Assembly (NCBI GenBank): GCA_965219085.1
Contig: OZ244720.1
Location: forward strand, 1,216,001-1,280,000
Source of the DNA: Dehalococcoidia bacterium
GTDB taxonomy: Bacteria; Chloroflexota; Dehalococcoidia; UBA2979
DNA length: 64,000 nucleotides
Direction: 5' to 3'
The position numbers and the translations under genes are program-made. Of this stretch, positions 3,772 through 47,304 are shown in pieces. The notes below the pieces were generated by a model. It was not told the DNA's origin. It ran no database searches and saw nothing but the letters and a program-made list of their open reading frames with translations. Position 1 is the first letter of the stretch. The number at the start of each line of letters is the position of its first letter.

Positions 3772-4836
3772 ATGACCGGACCCGAGAGCACCCGAAATCC
3801 GTGGTCGCTGGAGCTGAACCGGCGCACCCTCCTGCGAGGAGGTGTCCTCGGCGGGGCGGGCCTTGCCGCCGCGGCGCTCATCGGTTGTGGCGGCGACGAC
3901 GACGATGACGACGAGAGCGCGAGCACCGCTGCCGACACCAGCGGCAACAGCACCAGCACCGGCGCCACCACGGCCAGTCAGTCGTCGACCACGACGCAGA
4001 GCTCAAGCAGCAGCTCGTCAGACAGCTCTACCGCAAGCACCACGAGCGAAGACACCGAGGAGCAGGTCGAGACGCTCGGGGAGTGGATCAAGGATCCGGA
4101 CCTCCCGTACCCGTTCAACTACCCCGAACCGCCGGGCACGCCCAAGCCGGGTGGCGTCATGAAGGTCGCCACGAGTTGGGACTACCAGACCCTCGACCCG
4201 ATCGCCTCGGCCGCGGGCGGGACGGTGACCGTCCCCAACGTGGTCTACAACCGCCTGCTCGGCATCGTGCGCGGGCCGGCGGCGGACCCGTACCTGCTGG
4301 AACTCGAGCCGGAGCTGGCGCAGTCCTGGGAGCGCTCACCGGACGGGCTGACGTTCACGTTCAACATCACGCCGGGCATCACGTGGCAGAACCTGCCGCC
4401 GCTCAGCGGCCGGGCCTTCACTGCCGAAGACGCACGTTTCGCCATCGAGTTCAACTCGGCCTGGGTACCGAGCAAGCTGCCGGACGTGTCCACCGTCGCG
4501 TGGAGCACCAGCGGCTTCGACGCCGACAACTGGTTCCACGGGCAGATCCACTCGCAGTCGCCCGGTAACCGCTGGCGCATCAACGACCCGCAGCTCGACG
4601 AGTGGGCGGACCAGCAGCAGCTGGAACTGGATCCCGACGCGCGACGCGACATCTAGCAGAAGATCTACGACCGGGACCTGGACATGATGTACCGGCCGGC
4701 CTTCCCCAGCGGGAACTACCCCGAGGTGCTCCAGCCCTGGGTGCGCGGCATCCGTTGGGGCGCCAGCTCGCCGAACGACAACAGCTCCTACTACGACTGG
4801 GGCGACGTCATCCCGTCGGCCTGGCTCGACAAGTAG
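3772..4836 (+). pseudogene. SBP-5 copy 3: large in-frame internal deletion plus premature TAG
   Basis: RFAIE joined directly to FNSAW at ~4447-4449; TAG at 4654-4656, homology continues to SAWLDK* at 4836. Confidence 0.88.
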
Positions 4837-4875
4837 CGAGTCCTTCTCGGGACGCACTCCCTGGTACGGAGTCTG

Positions 4876-4901
4876 GGCGGGCGGCCTTCGGGCCGCCCGC
4901 C
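4876..4901 (+). terminator. Hairpin after SBP copy 3
   Basis: 11-bp stem, TTCG loop. Confidence 0.55.
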
Positions 4902-5069
4902 GCTCGTGAGGCGTCGTGCCGACATCGGCCGGCGCTCCGGCATGCATCCAGACGCGCCGGTATCACGTATACGAGTCCTGAGGACATCGACGTCTGCCCG
5001 CGCCAGGCCGCACGGCGATCGCGAGAGGTGTGAGATGGCCGATCACGAGCGCAGCGGACGAGGATTGGG

Positions 5070-6928
5070 ATGGAGCTGAACCGGCGCGCCCTGGTCCAGG
5101 GCGGCCTGCTCGGGGGTCTGGGCCTCGCCGGAGCTGCGCTCCTCGGCTGTACGCGCGATGACGAGACCGCTGCCGTCCCCGTGCAGGCCGACGCCACCAC
5201 TGACGCTGCACCCCGTAGCGCCACGACGGACGCGCAGCCCGAAGCAGCGGGCACGGCCGAGCCGACCCCAACCGGCCTGATGGGTCTCTCGAAGGAAGAG
5301 CTCGTGCAGGCGAAGTGCGAAGGGTGGCTTATAAGTGGTGGCGAGCTGCCCTTCCCGTTGCAGTTCCCCGAGCCAGCCGGACTGACGCCCAAGCCGGGCG
5401 GAACAATGTCGATCGCCGCCACGTTCGATGTCGCTTCCCTGGACCCGGCGTCGTCTCCAGCGGGGCGGAGCCATCACCGTTCAGAACATGGTCTACAACC
5501 GGCTGCCCGGCATGGTCGGGGGGCCACGCAAGCACCCATTCACCATCGAGCTCGAGCCTGAGCTCGCCTCCTCGTGGGAACGCACCCCGGACGGCGTGGC
5601 GTTCACGTTCAACCTCCGCGACGATGTGACGTGGCAGAACGTCGCCCCGCTCAACCGCCGTCCCTTCGTGGCCGAGGACGCGAGGTTCGCCTTCGAGCGC
5701 TACCGCTCGGAGGGCGCGCACCAGTCGCACTGGGCAAACGTCGCGGCTATCGAGGCACCGAACGACACCACGCTCAGCATCCACATGTCGAGAGTCACGG
5801 CGGACTTCGTGCTCCCGCTTGCCGGGCGCTACCAGACCACCTTCCCCCGGGAGCTCGTCGACAGCGGTGAGGTCGACACGAGGGCCGTGGGCACCGGCCT
5901 GATGATCCTGAGCGACCTCGACGCATCGAGCCGCGTCGCGTTCGCCAAGAACCCCGACTACTGGGAACGCGCCGTCCTGCTGGATAGCGTCGAGTTCAGG
6001 CTGGAGCCCGACATCGCCGCGAGGTCTGCGGCGTTTCGCGACGGTGCGGTCGACTACGCGTACTCGGTGGCGCCCACCATTCGGGCACTCGCGCCGATCC
6101 TCGATGCAAGCCCGCACGCGCAGGTCAACCTGCGCCCGGTAGTGAGCGGCGGCATGCCGCTCAGCCTGAACCTGTCCAACCTGAAGTTCACCGGCGAGCG
6201 CATACGCCGGGCGATGACGCTCGCGGTGGACACCGACCTGATGGTCGACCTCGTCTACGGCGGCCTCGCGAAGAACCTGCCACTCCACCCGTGGACACTC
6301 GCGCTCGACGACCCGGACGAAAGGCCCCGCGCAGAGTGTGGCGAGCTTGGCCCGTGGATCGGCCGCCACGACCTCGCCGAGGCGAAACAGCTACTGCGGG
6401 CAGCCGGCACCGAGGACCTCTCGTTCGGCTCGATTTACCACAACCGCGGGGACCCAACGCGGGACGGCATCACGGAGTTCGTCGCCGCACAGCTCGCCGA
6501 TGCCGGCATCACCATGCACTCGCGGCACGTCGACCAGACCCGAGTTCGAGACGACGTGGGCGTCGGGCGACCTGGCGGAGGCCAGCACGTCCGCGGCGCA
6601 CCCCGAGGGCTTCGACGCGGACCACTTCTTCTACCACCTGGTCCACTCGGAGTCCCCAAGGAACCAGTGGAGGCTCGACGATCCGCAAGTCGACGCATGG
6701 GCGGAGCAGCAACAGACGGAGCTCGATCCGGACGCCCGCCGGGGGATCCGCCGCCGGATGTTCGACTACTTCCTCGACAAGATGTTCTGGCCGCCGCTGC
6801 CCTCGGCGATCGGCTTCGAGGTCTACCAGCCCTGGGTGCGCGGGATCCGCTTCGGCGGCATCTACGGCACCAACAGCTCGTACTACGACTGGGGCGACCA
6901 GATCGCCGGAGCATGGCTCGACAAGTAG
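5070..6928 (+). pseudogene. SBP-5 copy 4 with two +1 frameshifts
   Basis: Homology runs through three frames; shifts near 5463-5466 (G run) and 6539-6541 (C run); ends GAWLDK*. Confidence 0.85.
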
Positions 6929-41837: not shown

Positions 41838-43220
41838 GTGACCCAGCGCTTCCTGCCGTGCGACCGTGACCAGCAATACCTGATGCCCGCCAGCCTGCGC
41901 GACTGGCTGCCCGAGGACCACCTCGCGTGGTTCGTGCTCGATGCGGTGAGCCAGCTCGACCTCAGCGCGTTCTACGCGCGCTACCGCGAGGACGGCTGGG
42001 GGCGGAAAGCGTACGAGCCGTCGATGATGGTCGCGCTGCTGCTCTATGCCTACTGCGAGGGCGAGCGCTCGAGCCGCCGGATCGAACGGCGTTGCCGCGA
42101 GGACATCGCCTTCCGCGTGCTGAGCGCGAACCAGCAGCCCGACCACGCCACGATCTGCCGCTTCCGCCGGCAGCACGAGGAGGCGCTCTCGGGCCTGTTC
42201 GCCGGGGTGCTCAGGCTCTGCGCCGAGGCGGGTCTGTTGCGGGTCGGCGTGGTCGCGCTCGACGGGACCAAGCTGCGCGCCAACGCCAGCCGTGAGCGCA
42301 ACCGCACGGATGCGGAGCTCGAGGCCGAGGTGCGGCGCATCCTCGCCGAGGCGGAGCGGGTCGACGCCGGGGAGAATGCGCGCTGCGGCGACGCGCGGGG
42401 CGACGAACTGCCCCCGCAGCTCAGGAACCGCGAGGAGCGCCTGCAGCGGCTGCGCGAGGCGCGGGAGCGGCTGGCGGCTCGTGAGCGGGAGCGGCAGGAG
42501 GACTACGAGGAACGCCTCAGGAGCCGCGCGCAGAAGGACCGGCGCGGGCGCCGCCCGCAGCCGCCGCAGCGCGACCCGGGCGCGAAGGTGAACGTCACTG
42601 ACCCGGACAGCCGCGTGGTGCGTGACTATCACGGCTACTTCCAGGGCTACAACGTGCAGGCGGTGACGACTCGCGACCAGATCATCGTCGCGGCCGAGCT
42701 GACACGTGCGGCGACGGACATGCACGAGCTGCAACCGATGATCGAGGCGGCGAACCGCAACCTGCAGACCCTGGGCCGAGCGCCGGCGCGCGTGCTGCTG
42801 GCCGATGCCGGCTACTACTCCGAGGCGAACGTGCGGCAGGCCGAAGGCAGGGGTCCGGAGTTGCTGCTCGCGACCCGCAGCGACCGCAACCGGCGTGGCG
42901 GCGCAGCGCCGCCGCGCGGGCGCATCCCTGCCGGGCTCTCCGTACGTGAACGGATGGACCGGAAACTGGCGACGCAGCGTGGCCGGCGTCTCTACGAGCA
43001 GCGGCGCTGGATGATCGAACCCGTCTTCGGCGACATCAAGGAGAACCGGGGCATCCGCCGGTTCATGCGGCGCGGGATCGCCGCGTGCGCCAGCGAATGG
43101 AAGCTGATCGCCGCCACCCACAACCTCAAGAAGCTCTATCGCCGGGCGCGCCCGTCACCCCGGCCGGCGAACAGCAACCCCCGACGAGGAGACCGGGCTA
43201 CCGCCGCCGCTGCCGCGTAG
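41838..43220 (+). CDS. IS1182-family transposase
   Basis: LP.DHLA.FV, SSR.IE..C..D..FR.L....PDH.TI.RFR, DGTK..ANAS, TDPDSR, DAGY, EPVFG.IK. Confidence 0.93.
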   Translation: MTQRFLPCDRDQQYLMPASLRDWLPEDHLAWFVLDAVSQLDLSAFYARYREDGWGRKAYEPSMMVALLLYAYCEGERSSRRIERRCREDIAFRVLSANQQPDHATICRFRRQHEEALSGLFAGVLRLCAEAGLLRVGVVALDGTKLRANASRERNRTDAELEAEVRRILAEAERVDAGENARCGDARGDELPPQLRNREERLQRLREARERLAARERERQEDYEERLRSRAQKDRRGRRPQPPQRDPGAKVNVTDPDSRVVRDYHGYFQGYNVQAVTTRDQIIVAAELTRAATDMHELQPMIEAANRNLQTLGRAPARVLLADAGYYSEANVRQAEGRGPELLLATRSDRNRRGGAAPPRGRIPAGLSVRERMDRKLATQRGRRLYEQRRWMIEPVFGDIKENRGIRRFMRRGIAACASEWKLIAATHNLKKLYRRARPSPRPANSNPRRGDRATAAAAA

Positions 43221-43252
43221 CGCGCCTGCCCCGCCAGACACGACCGCTCCGC

Positions 43253-43294
43253 GCCAACTGCCAACTGCCAACTGCCAACTGCCGACTGCCGACC
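43253..43294. repeat. Heptamer tandem repeat GCC(A/G)ACT x6 in IS1182 3' end
   Basis: 4x GCCAACT, GCCGACT, GCCGACC. Confidence 0.85.
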
Positions 43295-43930
43295 GGCTAC
43301 CCTTTTGGCACTCCACCCACGCGACTCCGTGCAACAGCCTCTGCTAGTACGCCAAGCACAGTCCCGTTGCAGGGAACTGACAGTCATTGTGCCCGACCAA
43401 GCAAAGAGCGCGGGGACACTGTTGGTGCTTGGGGCGCACAGAATCCTCATGGGGCCGACAAGTGATCTCGGCCCCGTCGATCCGCAATTCCCTAGCCCGA
43501 ATCCACCGATCGAAGCTTGACGGGGCGGGCTGCCGGGCTGGCGGAGAGTTCGGCGGGTGTGCCGTGGTGCGCCAGGCGGTGCCGGGGGCGGGCCGGAGCG
43601 AGGAGCCGGCGCTCAGCGCGGCTCGGGGGCGCTGAGAGCGCGGGCGCGAGGGTGCGCGAGGCGTGCGCGGGCATGCTGGCGCGAGCCTCGGACCCGGGCC
43701 GGCGCTGTGAGCGGGCGTCAGGCCGGGAGCGGAAGCGCCCGTAACCGCGCCAGGGCGGCTGCCCACTGCCCGGCCCAGGGCCAGCGCCTGGGGAGGTGCA
43801 GGGTCCAGCGCCGGGCAGAGATGGCATGAGGGCCGGCCTCCTCCTCAAGGGGGATACTCGCCCCCTGAAACAGCGGCCTCGATGGGCCAAGAGCGGCTCG
43901 GAAGAGCCTTGACGAGGTAGGAGACCGGCC

Positions 43931-45019
43931 ATGCAGCAGCATATCGCAACGACGCGGAGCATTGAAGGCAAGGATGGGCCCGCCATCACCGTCGGCCTCG
44001 ACGTGGGCGATCGTTACACGCACGTCCACGCCCTCGGCGCCGGCGGGGAGGTGATACGCGAGCGGCGCGTCCGCACCGCGGCTGCGGCGCTGGGCGCAGC
44101 GCTGACCGGCCTCTCCCCGGCGCGGGTCGTGCTCGAGGCGGGGCCGCGCTCGCCGTGGCTGAGCCGCGTCGTGGCGGACCTCGGCCATGAGGTGGTCGTC
44201 GCCAACCCTCGCCAGGTCGCGCTGATCGCCGGCAGCCAGCGCAAGACCGACCGGCTCGACGCCGCGTGGCTGGCGCGGCTGGGGCGCTTCGACCCGGAGT
44301 TGCTCGCCCCGATCCGCCACAGGAGCGAGCAGAGTCAGCACGACCTCGCCGTGGTGCGCGCCCGCGACGCGCTGGTGCGATCGAGGACGCTGCTCATCAA
44401 CCACGTGCGCGGGGCCGTCAAGGCCTGCGGCGCCGCGCTGCCGTCGTGCACGGCCGCGGCCTTTCACCGCAAGACGGCGGACCACATCCCCGACGGGCTG
44501 CGCCCGGCGCTGCTGCCGCTGGTGGAGGCGATTGGCGAGCTGACCGTGCGCACTGCGGCGGCCGGGCGGGAGGTCGAGGCGTTGTGCGAGGCCCACCCCG
44601 AGACCGCGGCGCTGCGCCAGGTCACCGGCGTGGGGCCGATCACCGCGCTCACGTTCGTGCTGACGATCGAGAACCCGGGGCGCTTCCCGCAGAACCGGGA
44701 GGTGGGGGCCTACCTCGGGCTCGTGCCGCGGCAGCGCGACTCAGGGGAGCGCGCGCCGCAGCTCGGCATCGGCAAGAGCGGCGACGCGGGCTTGCGGCGG
44801 CTGCTGGTGCAGGCCGCGCACTACATCCTCGGTCCCTTCGGACCCGATAGCGACCTGCGTCGCTGGGGTGAGCGCTACGCGGGAACAGGGGCGGGCAACG
44901 CGAAGAAGCGCGCGGTCGTGGCCGTCGCGAGGCGGTTGGCGGTGCTGCTGCTCGCGCTGTGGAAGAGCGGGGAGGTCTACGAGCCGCTGCGTCACGCCGT
45001 GGCCCGCGAGGCCGCGTAG
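43931..45019 (+). CDS. IS110-family recombinase (DEDD RuvC-like + Tnp20)
   Basis: VGLDV, VLEAG, KTDRLDA, GVGPITA, AYLGLVP...DSG, K.A.VAVAR.L. Confidence 0.95.
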   Translation: MQQHIATTRSIEGKDGPAITVGLDVGDRYTHVHALGAGGEVIRERRVRTAAAALGAALTGLSPARVVLEAGPRSPWLSRVVADLGHEVVVANPRQVALIAGSQRKTDRLDAAWLARLGRFDPELLAPIRHRSEQSQHDLAVVRARDALVRSRTLLINHVRGAVKACGAALPSCTAAAFHRKTADHIPDGLRPALLPLVEAIGELTVRTAAAGREVEALCEAHPETAALRQVTGVGPITALTFVLTIENPGRFPQNREVGAYLGLVPRQRDSGERAPQLGIGKSGDAGLRRLLVQAAHYILGPFGPDSDLRRWGERYAGTGAGNAKKRAVVAVARRLAVLLLALWKSGEVYEPLRHAVAREAA

Positions 45020-45285
45020 CCGGGAGGCGCCGCCTCAGCCGGCGGGGACCGGAGATCAGGAAGGAAGACCCGAGCGCGAACGAAGCCACGCACGTGATGC
45101 CGAGCACGGGCGACTGCGAGCACCCACTTGTCCCATCGAGGACGCGGCAGAGATAGCAGCGCCCCCTGGAAGCAGGATGTGCCTTCATGCACCGGGCTCG
45201 CTGTAGCCCACCGAGAGTGCGGATAGAAGCTTGGCACAGGCTCCGCGACCGGACATCACGAGCGGCTTGAATGGAGCGCCATACC
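45020..45285 (+). ncRNA. Putative bridge/seek RNA of the IS110 element (ends approximate)
   Basis: Two stem-internal-loop-stem units with loop sequences matching the target and the element end. Confidence 0.75.
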
Positions 45286-45392
45286 CGGAGAAGGCCGCCA
45301 CGTCGGCCTTGCGGAAAGACCGTCCCTCATAGAAGCGCCATACCCGGAGAAGGCCGCCACGTCGGCCTTGCGGAAAGACCGTCCCTCATAGA
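45275..45392. repeat. Perfect 59-bp tandem duplication of the IS110 right end
   Basis: 45275-45333 = 45334-45392. Confidence 0.92.
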
Positions 45393-47304
45393 AGTGGGTG
45401 AGCCGTCCGGCGAGGGCGAAATAGCGCCACCTGAGCGTCCTGGTCGTGACGATTCCCTCGCCGAGCCCGAGCCGTGCCGTCCAGCGGGCGAGGTTGTGCG
45501 CGATCACCTGCACCGCGAGCCATGCCGCGTTCGCGGCGAAGCGGCCCGAGGGGAGATGGTTGAGCCCGACGCCGTACTTGAGGTCGCGGATCGCGTTCTC
45601 GATCTCGGCGTGACGGCGATGGTCAGCCTCCAGCTCCATCATCTCCCCGGCGCGGTCGGTGATGAAGGCGTGGTAGCTGTACGTCGCGAAGAGCGCCAGC
45701 TGTGAGCCGGGCGTCGGCTGGACGCGCCGCGCGATGAGCCGAACCGCGCTGGCGTCCTTCGCGTGCCGGAACGGCGTGTAGGTCGTCTCGGCGACAGCGG
45801 CGCCGCCCGGCAGCCAGTACGGGATCGGCGTCCAGTCCTCCTCAGGTATCGCCTCGAGCAGCGTGCGTACGTTCGGCTGCTGGCGGATCGTGATTGAGAA
45901 GCGGACATCCAGCGCGCGGCAGGCGGCGACGACGGCGTGGTTGTAGAAGCCGCTGTCGGCGCGCATCGTGAGCTGCCCGCTCGCTCCGGCGTCGCGTACC
46001 CGCGCCACCGTCTCACGCAGGAAGTGTGCGGCCCCCCGTGCGGTGTTGGCGCGGCCCTCGCGCAGCCGCGCCATCAGCACGTCACCCGTCCCGGCCGCGA
46101 CCGCGAGCAGCGGGTGATAGCCGCGCACGCCCGTGTAGCCGTGGTGCCGGGCGCCCTCCTTGGCCAGGCCGTAGGTCTCACAGATCGTCGAGTCGAGGTC
46201 GATCGTGAACGGCGCCGCGCCGGGTCCCGCCCCGGCCGCCCATGCGCGGGCGAGCAATGCGCGGCTGACGCGGTCGAGCTGGCGGACGTGGCCCCAGCGG
46301 AAGCTGCGCAGGAAGGTTCCGAGGGTGGACGGCGCCTTGACCGTGCAACCCAGCACGCTCGCCGTCCCGCCGGCGCGCAAGGCAGCGGCGTCGTCGATGC
46401 AGTCGCCGCCCGCGAGCGCCGAGGCGACCAGGGTCAGCAGCTTGTCGCCGGCGTTCGCGCGCCCCGCTGCGTCACCGAGGTCGAGGTGGGCGTCCGCCAG
46501 TGCACGGAGGCCGAGCCGGCCAGCGAGCGTGGCGGGGAGCAGCAGGCCTGCGTGGTCCACGAGGCGGTCGTCGCCTGAGGCGATGTCTATCCGCTCGGGG
46601 TTACTCGCTGCTAGCATCGAATGGGTGCTCCTGTGGCTGTGACGTGAATTCTCAAAACCCATTGTCCCAGCTACAGCGGAGCACCCAACCGCAGCCCCTC
46701 GCGCGCTCTTCTTCGGTGGATCAGGGCTTAGCGCGGACGGATCACTAGCAGCGGGAAAGGCAATCATCGCGGCAGTCGAGGACGCGGAGAGACGGGTTCA
46801 AGCGAACCCGGAAACTTACGCGCTGCACGCCGCTCTGTTGAGCGACGTGACAGCCCTGATGGTGCAGCAGGCTCGCGATGAAATCGCCCGTAGCGGGGCT
46901 CAGGTGAGGGAGGCACTCGCGTCTCATCCTGAGCGCCCTATCGAGGACATTAACGGCCTTGCTCAGGTCCTGCACGCCCCGCTGATCGATGAGACATCCA
47001 GTCACCGGGCGACGATCTCGGCGCGAGATGCTATCGGCTTTGGGCTACCTGTTGAGGAAGTCGACCCGAGCGGTCCGCAGTGGCAAGCGATTTGGCGCAT
47101 CTGGACAAAGTACGTGGCTCTGGGCCCCGTGCGAGTCTACGAAGGACAAACCGCCTCGCAGCTCTTGCGGGCGCCCTTCGCGATCCAGTAGCGCTCCGTG
47201 ACCGGCAGCCCGTCACGTCCGCCGGCGCCGACGCCATCGCGCTACCGCCTCTACCCTGGCCCGCCCCAGCTACGAGTACATGGGCATCTGGTCACCGTTC
47301 CTCG

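What the first reader, a model, noticed from the sequence alone, without database searches (positions are those of the whole stretch)
43819..45394. IS110 RNA-guided recombinase with a readable bridge RNA programmed against an IS1380 transposase gene
Seen: the pre-insertion target is GGCAG-AG-TGGGTG. In the downstream non-coding end, an outer stem (GGGCG-a-CTGC 45108-45117 / GCAGCGCCC 45156-45164) and an inner stem (GTCC 45130 / GGAC 45140) frame an internal loop. Its strands are CACCCACT (45121-45128, exact reverse complement of AG-TGGGTG) and GGCAGAG (45146-45152, identical to the left flank + core). A second loop (TGTGCC 45178 / GGCACA 45233; GCAC/GTGC) displays ATAGAAG (45223-45229), identical to the element's own right end + core (45388-45394). 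Established: IS110/IS1111 elements use bridge/seek RNAs with target- and donor-binding loops. Inference: a compact 362-aa programmable recombinase whose natural target is another IS family.
Basis: partly seen in the sequence, partly recalled or inferred. Interest (0 to 1): 0.85.

Follow-up and report, generated by a model that had tools for sequence, protein, structure and literature searches.

The report
RNA-guided IS1111-type element inside IS1380
This is a jumping gene of the known IS110/IS1111 kind whose own small RNA spells out the DNA site it inserts into, here the transposase gene of another jumping gene, and sister copies with other RNA "addresses" sit at the matching sites.

Summary
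Window 43819-45394 is an IS1111-group (IS110 family) insertion sequence. It carries a 362-aa DEDD/Ser recombinase gene (43931-45019) and a structured RNA in the right non-coding end (about 45092-45249). It interrupts an IS1380-family transposase gene.

The two strands of the target loop (45121-45128 and 45146-45152) match GGCAG-AG-TGGGTG exactly. Uninterrupted IS1380 paralogues show that site with a single AG.

The genome holds 11 copies in four guide variants. With 31 copies from related genomes there are 14 guide variants. Cognate guide/flank matches average 8.43 of 11, against 3.82 for non-cognate pairs (0 of 100,000 permutations reach the observed sum).

The RNA fold is conserved with compensatory changes in 46 of 47 distant homologues.

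Other points:
- The copy carries a 59-bp right-end duplication (45277-45335 / 45336-45394).
- Five of 23 unique guide/site combinations are discordant. Three of these sit at the site named by a co-resident sister variant's guide.

This is a new member of a known kind. RNA expression and circle formation are not shown.

The parts
43819..43930 (+). Left end (112 nt): core AG 43819-43820, 7-nt terminal extension AGATGGC, and subterminal inverted repeat ATGAGGGCCGG at 43826-43836
   Evidence: copy boundaries shared by 11 copies in the genome
43931..45019 (+). Recombinase gene, 362 aa. DEDD candidates are D24, E69, D107 and D110; Ser271 lies in GLVPRQRDSG
   Evidence: The KTDxxDA and (D/E)SG stretches align with the ISCro4 and IS621 transposases
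45092..45249 (+). Bridge/seekRNA gene (extent of the covariance-model match; the true RNA ends are unknown)
   Evidence: Alignment A2 and model R1; 46 of 47 distant loci hit; covariation count
45099..45103 (+). 5' half of closing stem P1 (GCCGA); pairs with 45231-45235 (TTGGC)
   Evidence: helix 1, 5 of 5 pairs with changes on both sides
45108..45164 (+). Target-binding arm: outer stem 45108-45117 / 45156-45164; right-target guide CACCCACT 45121-45128; inner hairpin 45130-45143; left-target guide GGCAGAG 45146-45152
45165..45176 (+). Small hairpin CCTG-GAAG-CAGG
   Evidence: helix 6
45180..45186 (+). Candidate left-donor guide TGCCTTC, complementary to core-G plus ATGGCA at 6 of 7 positions (T opposite T at left-end position 2)
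   Evidence: Covaries with left-end position 5 (C in W; G in L127, L047 and L042 types) and position 4 (A in L043)
45188..45221 (+). Donor-arm inner hairpin: TGCAC 45188-45192 pairs with GTGCG 45217-45221, and GGGCT pairs with AGCCC
   Evidence: helices 8 and 9
45223..45229 (+). Right-donor guide ATAGAAG, identical to the right end plus core
   Evidence: It changes to ATGGAAG together with the right end in L047, L048 and L049
45277..45394 (+). Two tandem 59-bp copies of the right end (45277-45335 and 45336-45394). Each ends CCGTCCCTCAT-AGA-AG, with the subterminal repeat at 45320-45330 and 45379-45389
   Evidence: Copy H lacks the second unit
45395..46767 (-). Interrupted IS1380-family transposase gene, N-terminal 457 codons
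43718..43818 (-). C-terminal remainder of the same IS1380 transposase gene (…SARRWTLHLPRRWPW…), including its stop codon
   Evidence: tail of ORF 43718..44596 on the minus strand; uninterrupted paralogues

Best explanation
An IS1111-group member of the IS110 family. Its DEDD/Ser recombinase is guided by a roughly 160-nt RNA transcribed from the right non-coding end. One arm of the RNA holds an internal loop. The 5' strand of that loop pairs with the top strand of core plus right target (AG-TGGGTG). The 3' strand pairs with the bottom strand of left target plus core (GGCAG-AG). Strands next to a second hairpin carry the element's own right end plus core (ATAGAAG) and an imperfect complement of core plus left end. 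The excised circle (…ATAGA-AG-ATGGCA…) is thereby recombined at the AG core into codons Thr-His-Ser of an IS1380 transposase gene, in one orientation and without any duplication beyond the shared AG. What is shown here: the anatomy, the target, guide/target covariation and structural covariation. What is inferred from published relatives: RNA expression, the circle intermediate and catalysis.
For: Protein family. IS1111 hallmarks read from the sequence against criteria quoted: long non-coding region downstream; an 11-bp subterminal inverted repeat (10 of 11 matching) with 7-nt left and 3-nt right extensions; a GL-P----SG motif; top-strand match 5' of bottom-strand match. Own genome: 11 copies in four guide variants. 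Each variant's loop strands equal its own flanks: W GGCAG|AG|TGGGTG, C-type TCAAG|AG|CTACCG, B CCACC|AG|CAGCTC, J CGCAT|AG|CAGCCT. J's right flank lies at the end of its right-end array. With 31 copies from related genomes there are 14 guide variants. Of the 42 copies, 31 have both flanks, giving 23 unique combinations, and 18 of the 23 score at least 7 of 11. The cognate mean is 8.43 against 3.82 for non-cognate pairs, with 0 of 100,000 permutations reaching the observed sum. Unoccupied exact targets in the genome lie only in the expected IS genes: 8 for the C-type and 10 for the J-type. In distant homologues, 12 of 36 RNA variants have an exact left-guide+AG 7-mer abutting a left-end motif. 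Structure: 90.3% of cells paired against 75.2% in shuffles and 30-45% in slid controls, and 29 of 36 pairs show double changes. The right-donor guide changes ATAGAAG to ATGGAAG together with the right end.
Against: No Rfam family matches at E<=1. The single-sequence fold is not more stable than shuffles (z = -0.63). Five of 23 unique guide/flank combinations are discordant (A, L031, L064, L039, L050). L021 and L113 are discordant on the one flank that could be read. The left-donor guide is imperfect in this copy, and its register is unclear in some distant homologues. The covariation count was made on an alignment fitted to the model. Expression evidence is weak: contigs from RNA libraries are identical to this copy over 45047-45148 and 45219-45322, but the tool warns that such libraries can contain DNA. 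No circle junction was seen.
Confidence: 0.93

Rival explanations
1. The discordant copies arose by trans-guiding. In the synaptic complex the target loop comes from the RNA of a co-resident sister variant, while the donor loop (its own or the sister's) holds the circle. An element then lands at the sister's address. This extends the best explanation rather than competing with it.
For: L031 and L064 are 100% identical over every 100-nt window of the element to L028, L029 and L030, which sit at their cognate site. The sites of L031 and L064 match the guide TTTTC|AG|CAGCCT at 10 and 11 of 11 positions. That guide belongs to a co-resident variant with 25 hits at 125.3 bits plus two slightly lower-scoring hits; 5 of 5 examined copies (L127, L130, L133, L144, L145) carry it, while the more divergent L146 has a one-base variant. 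The variant's recombinase is 72% identical. In the window's genome, copy A carries W-type guides but lies in an IS5-family site that matches the C-type guide at 10 of 11 positions; five C-type copies are present. Apart from that pair, no non-cognate pair exceeds 8 of 11. For IS621, the target and donor loops of one synaptic complex come from two different RNA molecules (PMC11208158, passages).
Against: No co-resident matching guide was found for L039, L050 or L021; not every RNA hit in those genomes was read. Copy A is a mosaic: its first ~300 nt are not W-like, so recombination has also acted on it. Nothing here shows when the insertions happened.
Confidence: 0.5
2. The discordant copies arose by element replacement. 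A circle recombined donor-to-donor with a resident sister copy at their shared ends, forming a tandem, and the resident copy then excised. The incomer is left in the sister's site.
For: All variants share the right end ATAGAAG and a near-identical left end. Donor-donor recombination is reported for IS621 (PMC11208158, passage). Tandem full and partial modules are reported at IS110 loci (preprint 10.64898/2026.08.14.744561, section 8) and are seen here in J, B, W, L042 and L077.
Against: No full tandem of two different variants was seen in the loci examined. The model needs two successive events.
Confidence: 0.3
3. The loop/target matches are coincidence, or target DNA carried along by imprecise excision. 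Site choice is made by the protein alone.
For: A single copy offers only one 8-mer and two 7-mers. The single-sequence fold is not unusually stable.
Against: There are 14 guide variants with matching flanks and 0 of 100,000 permutations reach the observed sum. The guides sit at fixed positions in a fold that shows compensatory changes. Recombinases 90-98% identical to this one carry different guides and sit at different sites.
Confidence: 0.02

Closest known systems
IS1111-family insertion sequences with a seekRNA (ISEc11, ISKpn4, ISPst6, ISPa11; Siddiquee et al. 2024, PMC11187229; sections 4, 6, 9 and 13 read)
   Same: DEDD transposase with a GL-P----S(t)G motif. Long non-coding region downstream of tnp. 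Subterminal inverted repeats with 7-nt and 3-nt extensions. The RNA carries a top-strand match 5' of a bottom-strand match, and the two overlap at the core. One orientation, one site per variant. Natural reprogramming between close relatives is reported there too.
   Different: The protein is 362 aa, against the 330-350 aa quoted for the family. The targets are mostly coding sequence of other IS transposases, not a short linear site, attC or REP. The hosts are uncultured lineages; the related records are titled Dehalococcoidia. No experiment has been done.
IS621 / IS110-group bridge RNA (Durrant et al. 2024, PMC11208160, passages; Hiraizumi et al. 2024, PMC11208158, passages)
   Same: A bispecific RNA with target- and donor-binding parts. 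A dinucleotide core is shared by target and donor. There is a catalytic Ser in the C-terminal domain. The PDB chains 8wt6 (IS621) and 9t56 (ISCro4) are detectable relatives at E 1.4e-8 and 3.7e-10.
   Different: The RNA lies in the right end, not the left. The strand order of the guides is reversed. The core is AG, not CT. The donor guides lie in a multiloop rather than a simple internal loop, as Durrant et al. remark for many IS1111 members.
IS4321/IS5075, which target the terminal repeats of Tn21-family transposons (Partridge & Hall 2003; seen only as a title in the reference list of PMC11208160)
   Same: An IS1111-family element whose natural target is another mobile element.
   Different: Those target non-coding terminal repeats. 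Here the targets are conserved codons inside transposase genes of IS1380, IS5 and IS3 families.
Tandem non-coding repeat units and half-match recombination at IS110 loci (preprints 10.64898/2026.08.14.744561, abstract and section 8 read; 10.64898/2026.08.31.748434, abstract read) and the modular circles of ISPpu9 (PMC12288879, abstract read)
   Same: Partial right-end modules are repeated head to tail after a full copy. Each unit ends at the authentic donor end.
   Different: Here 7 of 7 distinct junctions start right after an internal AG, the core dinucleotide. Whether the preprints report this for IS1111-type elements was not checked.

Membership tests
IS110 family (sensu ISfinder): DEDD RNA-guided transposase | N-terminal RuvC-like DEDD domain plus C-terminal Transposase_20 domain | tested here: met
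   PF01548 at 1.3e-18 and PF02371 at 6.9e-19. NF033542 at 231.9 bits against a cutoff of 140. The KTDxxDA and (D/E)SG stretches align with IS621 and ISCro4
IS1111 group | Longer non-coding region downstream of tnp | tested here: met
   Left end 112 nt; right non-coding end 316 nt in the canonical copy (45020-45335). Criterion quoted
IS1111 group | Subterminal inverted repeats of about 11-13 bp, with terminal extensions of 7 bp (left) and 3 bp (right) | tested here: met
   ATGAGGGCCGG at 43826-43836 against the reverse complement of CCGTCCCTCAT at 45379-45389: 10 of 11 match. Extensions are AGATGGC (7) and AGA (3), counting one AG with the element. Criterion quoted
IS1111 group | GL-P----S(t)G motif in the C-terminal domain | tested here: met
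   GLVPRQRDSG, residues 263-272. Criterion quoted
IS1111 group | seekRNA with the top-strand match 5' of the bottom-strand match | tested here: met
   45121-45128 is the reverse complement of the top strand. 45146-45152 equals the top strand. Criterion quoted
IS1111 / IS110 bridge-RNA systems | Guide strands covary with target flanks among relatives | tested here: met
IS1111 / IS110 bridge-RNA systems | Site- and orientation-specific insertion with no duplication beyond the core | tested here: met
   W, D and H share orientation and site in IS1380. C, E and K sit at the C-type IS5 site in one orientation at both flanks; A, F and I share that left flank. A's right flank is a diverged copy of the site, I's shows the same site beyond a ~909-bp insert, and F's right flank differs. 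Empty sites carry a single AG
IS1111 / IS110 bridge-RNA systems | The RNA is expressed and bound by the transposase | tested here: inconclusive
   Contigs from RNA libraries cover 45047-45148 and 45219-45322 without differences. Such libraries can hold DNA, and contigs show neither ends nor strand
IS1111 / IS110 bridge-RNA systems | Circular intermediate with abutted ends | not testable with these tools
   No back-joint from 45394 to 43819 was listed in the four runs laid. Contigs drop rare forms
Rfam-curated RNA family | Match to a curated covariance model | tested here: not met
   0 matches at E<=1 over 43000-46500

The most novel reading that the evidence does not exclude
Co-resident variants of one bridge-RNA element form a shared pool of guides. 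An element can be sent to the address written in a sister variant's RNA, with the target loop from one RNA and the donor loop from another. The lineage has radiated onto conserved codons of other IS families' transposase genes. It is in turn hit by an IS110-group element that inserts into the DNA encoding its donor loop. That would be a layered, RNA-addressed parasitism among insertion sequences.
Probability: 0.45. Interest if true: 0.65.

Novelty: new member of a known kind. Interest (0 to 1): 0.45.

Why it matters
The element adds nothing to the principle, which has been published since 2024. What it offers is an unusually clean natural data set: 14 guide variants on one conserved RNA scaffold, four of them in a single 3.3-Mb genome, each with occupied and empty targets. 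Such a set can calibrate which guide positions matter, including the variable pairing at the core and the tolerated left-end mismatch. It also gives natural candidates for cross-programming between variants and shows that transposase genes of other IS families can serve as targets. The recombinase is compact and comes from a lineage far from the characterised enzymes.

Tried and rejected
- **Rfam.** The scan of 43000-46500 found no match.
- **Single-sequence folding.** The fold gave no stability signal (z = -0.63), so I relied on comparative structure instead.
- **Sequencing runs.** Only four RNA-library runs, kept as contigs, were laid. They show the empty IS1380 site and pieces of the element. 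They show no circle junction, no RNA ends and no strand. I make no claim of transcription or of absence.
- **Co-resident guides for L039, L050 and L021.** None was found among the RNA hits read. Not all hits in those genomes were fetched.
- **L113.** It could not be aligned cleanly, so only its right flank is used.
- **Register of the left-donor guide.** It varies in distant homologues (for example L059), so I report only the close clade.
- **The ~909-bp insert in the right end of copies F and I.** Four ORFs tested gave no Pfam hit. It is left unexplained.
- **Promoters and terminators.** These were not scanned.
- **Not used.** No structure prediction, complex prediction or large protein search was run, because the family assignment was already clear.
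- **Supplements.** Supplementary files of the papers are closed. The target tables of Siddiquee et al. and Durrant et al. may already list relatives that target IS genes.
- **Literature searches.** Searches turned up no paper on natural cross-targeting between co-resident variants, or on IS1111 elements aimed at transposase coding sequence. That is four keyword searches, not proof of absence.
Full report
**What is there**

The window is 64 kb of a single-contig genome of 3.3 Mb and 69.8% G+C. Positions 43819-45394 hold a 362-aa ORF (43931-45019). The ORF matches Pfam DEDD_Tnp_IS110 and Transposase_20. It also matches NCBIfam NF033542, 'IS110 family RNA-guided transposase', at 231.9 bits against a cutoff of 140. 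Its nearest solved relatives are the ISCro4 and IS621 transposases (E 3.7e-10 and 1.4e-8). The KTDxxDA stretch and the Ser-Gly of GLVPRQRDSG align with them.

The element splits a gene on the minus strand. The N-terminal 457 codons (45395-46767) match NF033539, IS1380 family transposase, at 300 bits against a cutoff of 180. The C-terminal codons continue to the left of 43818.

The reconstructed target GGCAG-AG-TGGGTG is real:
- Three uninterrupted IS1380 paralogues in the same genome read through it with one AG. They differ at one left-flank base, reading GGCGG or GGCCG.
- Contigs from two metatranscriptome runs join 43818 to 45393, skipping 1574 nt with two shared letters.

Two things were missed. 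First, the canonical element is 1517 bp. Copy H (99.9% identical) ends at the first ATAGAAG, whereas this copy repeats its last 59 bp (45277-45335 and 45336-45394). Second, a candidate left-end guide exists. TGCCTTC (45180-45186) complements core-G plus ATGGCA at 6 of 7 positions.

**Family**

I compared the sequence with the criteria in Siddiquee et al. (PMC11187229, sections read) and Durrant et al. (PMC11208160, passages). The element has all the IS1111-group hallmarks:
- The long non-coding region is downstream of tnp.
- An 11-bp subterminal inverted repeat is present (43826-43836 and 45379-45389, 10 of 11 matching).
- Terminal extensions are 7 nt on the left and 3 nt on the right.
- The GL-P----SG motif is present.
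- The top-strand match lies 5' of the bottom-strand match.

**Guide and target covary**

The genome holds 11 copies at 87-100% identity. They fall into four guide variants on an otherwise conserved scaffold:
- **W, D, H:** loop strands read CACCCACT / GGCAGAG, and the copies sit in IS1380.
- **C, E, K, F, I:** strands read GCGGTAGC / TCAAGAG, and the copies sit at TCAAG|AG|CTACCG. That site lies in an IS5-family transposase gene (NF033581 at 253.9 bits).
- **B:** strands read CGAGCTGCT / CCACCAG, and the copy sits at CCACC|AG|CAGCTC. It lies between an IS256-like gene remnant and another IS110-family gene.
- **J:** strands read AGGCTGCT / CGCATAG, and the copy sits at CGCAT|AG|CAGCCT. These are the Arg-Pro-His-Ser-Ser-Leu codons of an IS3-family transposase (NF033516 at 191.3 bits).

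Exact unoccupied targets occur 8 times for the C-type and 10 times for the J-type, all in those IS genes. There are none for W or B.

A search of one genome per species returned 79 loci. The 31 with 69-98% protein identity keep the same scaffold and add ten more guide variants. Their records are titled Dehalococcoidia or Tepidiformaceae MAGs.

Of the 42 copies in all, 31 have both flanks readable, giving 23 unique guide/flank combinations. I scored five left-flank and six right-flank positions, allowing the same one-base register choice to every pair. Cognate pairs average 8.43 of 11 and 299 non-cognate pairs average 3.82. No permutation out of 100,000 reaches the observed sum.

**The RNA fold**

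RNAalifold on 15 variants gives a multibranched fold:
- a closing stem (45099-45103 with 45231-45235);
- the target arm with its 12-by-12 internal loop;
- a small hairpin (45165-45176);
- a donor hairpin (45188-45221).

The donor guides lie in the junction strands.

A covariance model built from this fold found the RNA downstream of the ORF in 46 of 47 distant loci (49-59% protein identity, several phyla by record title). The one locus without a hit ends just after the gene. On that alignment 90.3% of cells pair, against 75.2% in shuffles and 30-45% when partners are slid. Changes on both sides occur in 29 of 36 pairs, including all five pairs of the closing stem. The alignment was fitted to the model, which favours the structure.

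It is at best an alternative conformer.

The right-donor guide switches from ATAGAAG to ATGGAAG exactly where the right end does (L047, L048, L049). The left-donor guide follows left-end positions 4 and 5 in L043, L047 and L127.

**Results against the simple picture**

Five of 23 combinations are discordant (A, L031, L064, L039, L050). L021 and L113 are discordant on the single flank that could be read.

For three of the five there is a specific explanation. L031 and L064 are 100% identical over the whole element to L028-L030, which lie at their cognate site. L031 and L064 themselves occupy TCTTC/TTTTC|AG|CAGCCT. That site is the address of a co-resident variant with 25 hits at 125.3 bits plus two slightly lower-scoring hits. 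Five of five examined copies (L127, L130, L133, L144, L145) carry that guide; the more divergent L146 has a one-base variant. Three of three with flanks read (L127, L130, L133) sit at that address. The variant's recombinase is 72% identical.

In the window's own genome, copy A has W-type guides but sits in an IS5-family copy that fits the C-type guide at 10 of 11 positions. A is also a mosaic, since its first ~300 nt are not W-like.

For IS621, the target and donor loops of one synaptic complex come from two RNA molecules, and donor-donor recombination occurs (PMC11208158, passages). So two routes are open: trans-guiding by a sister RNA, or replacement of a resident sister copy. I cannot separate them here. 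For L039, L050 and L021 no matching co-resident guide was found.

**Right-end arrays**

This copy has an extra 59-bp unit. Copy B has a 76-bp unit, L042 has two units, and J has four partial units of 119-322 nt, one of which carries a whole second RNA gene. L077 has six right ends at a 155-bp spacing.

In 7 of 7 distinct junctions the repeated piece starts right after an internal AG, and every unit ends at the true right end. That fits recombinase action at pseudo-cores. A 2026 preprint on tandem non-coding units and half-match recombination describes similar arrays (section 8 read). I did not test replication slippage as an alternative.

**Targets across the clade**

Besides the IS1380, IS5 and IS3 transposase genes, the targets found are:
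- sequence just upstream of other IS110-family genes (B, L022);
- ISNCY/IS630-like helix-turn-helix regions (L032, L042; below the model cutoffs because only fragments were scanned);
- a palindromic repeat (L023 type);
- sites beside host genes, namely a formate-tetrahydrofolate ligase (L028) and a von Willebrand A protein (L048).

For L030, L043 and L049 no family was found. Other IS elements are therefore a frequent target but not the exclusive one.

**Verdict**

The finding is real and correctly interpreted. It is a new member of a known kind, and the principle, including natural reprogramming, is in print. Its value is as a natural series of reprogrammed guides, and as a lead on cross-programming between co-resident variants.

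Noticed in passing
L021 4299-5579; L027 about 4296-5559; L139 from 498: A ~1.28-kb IS110-family element is inserted on the opposite strand, inside the DNA that encodes the donor loop of this IS family. Its ORF L021:4312-5430 matches NF033542 at 175.2 bits. The insertion lies at GGAT-AG|…|AG-AAGCT, with AG at both junctions. It occurs in three genomes and is 99.5% identical between L021 and L027. By eye, its short upstream end holds GCTTCT and GCATAG around a hairpin, close to its own target. It looks like an RNA-guided IS aimed at another RNA-guided IS's guide gene.
   Followed up: partly
L021 up to 2889; L034, L035, L036 and L038 up to 2893: In five copies from two genomes the first three bases of the left end (AGA) are replaced, and the same foreign sequence (ending …GCCGGGCGCTC) abuts TGGCATGAG. 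It has no similarity to the element above. What it is remains unknown.
   Followed up: partly
G000:C1 1859038-1859948 and 1972909-1973817 (outside the window): Copies F and I carry the same ~909-bp insert in the right end, between …GCAGAAAG and ACCGTCCCTCATAGAAG. The sequences are identical for 928 nt, and four ORFs tested gave no Pfam hit. After the restored right end, F has a different right flank (TGACCG…) from the C-type site.
   Followed up: partly
G000:C1 1333208-1334571 (copy D, outside the window): Copy D is cut at element position 1364. It is joined to IS1380 sequence about 80 bp beyond the insertion site, at a short shared GTGC. This is a deletion across the right junction.
   Followed up: no
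window 41838-43220 (+): A 460-aa DUF772 + DDE_Tnp_1_6 transposase gene lies 600 bp to the left of the IS1380 remnant. By target-site counts, the genome holds at least 6 IS1380 copies, about 14 copies of an IS5-family element and about 11 copies of an IS3-family element.
   Followed up: partly
window 43700-45500, runs X1-X16: Sixteen runs from seven studies hold about half or more of the sampled words; four of them are labelled sponge metagenome.
   Followed up: no
loose ends at 45336: RNA-library contigs continue from the first right end (45335) into other flanks. One flank is CTCTGAGCCC…, which resembles the palindromic target of the L023-type variant. Relatives of the element therefore sit at other addresses in those communities.
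   Followed up: no
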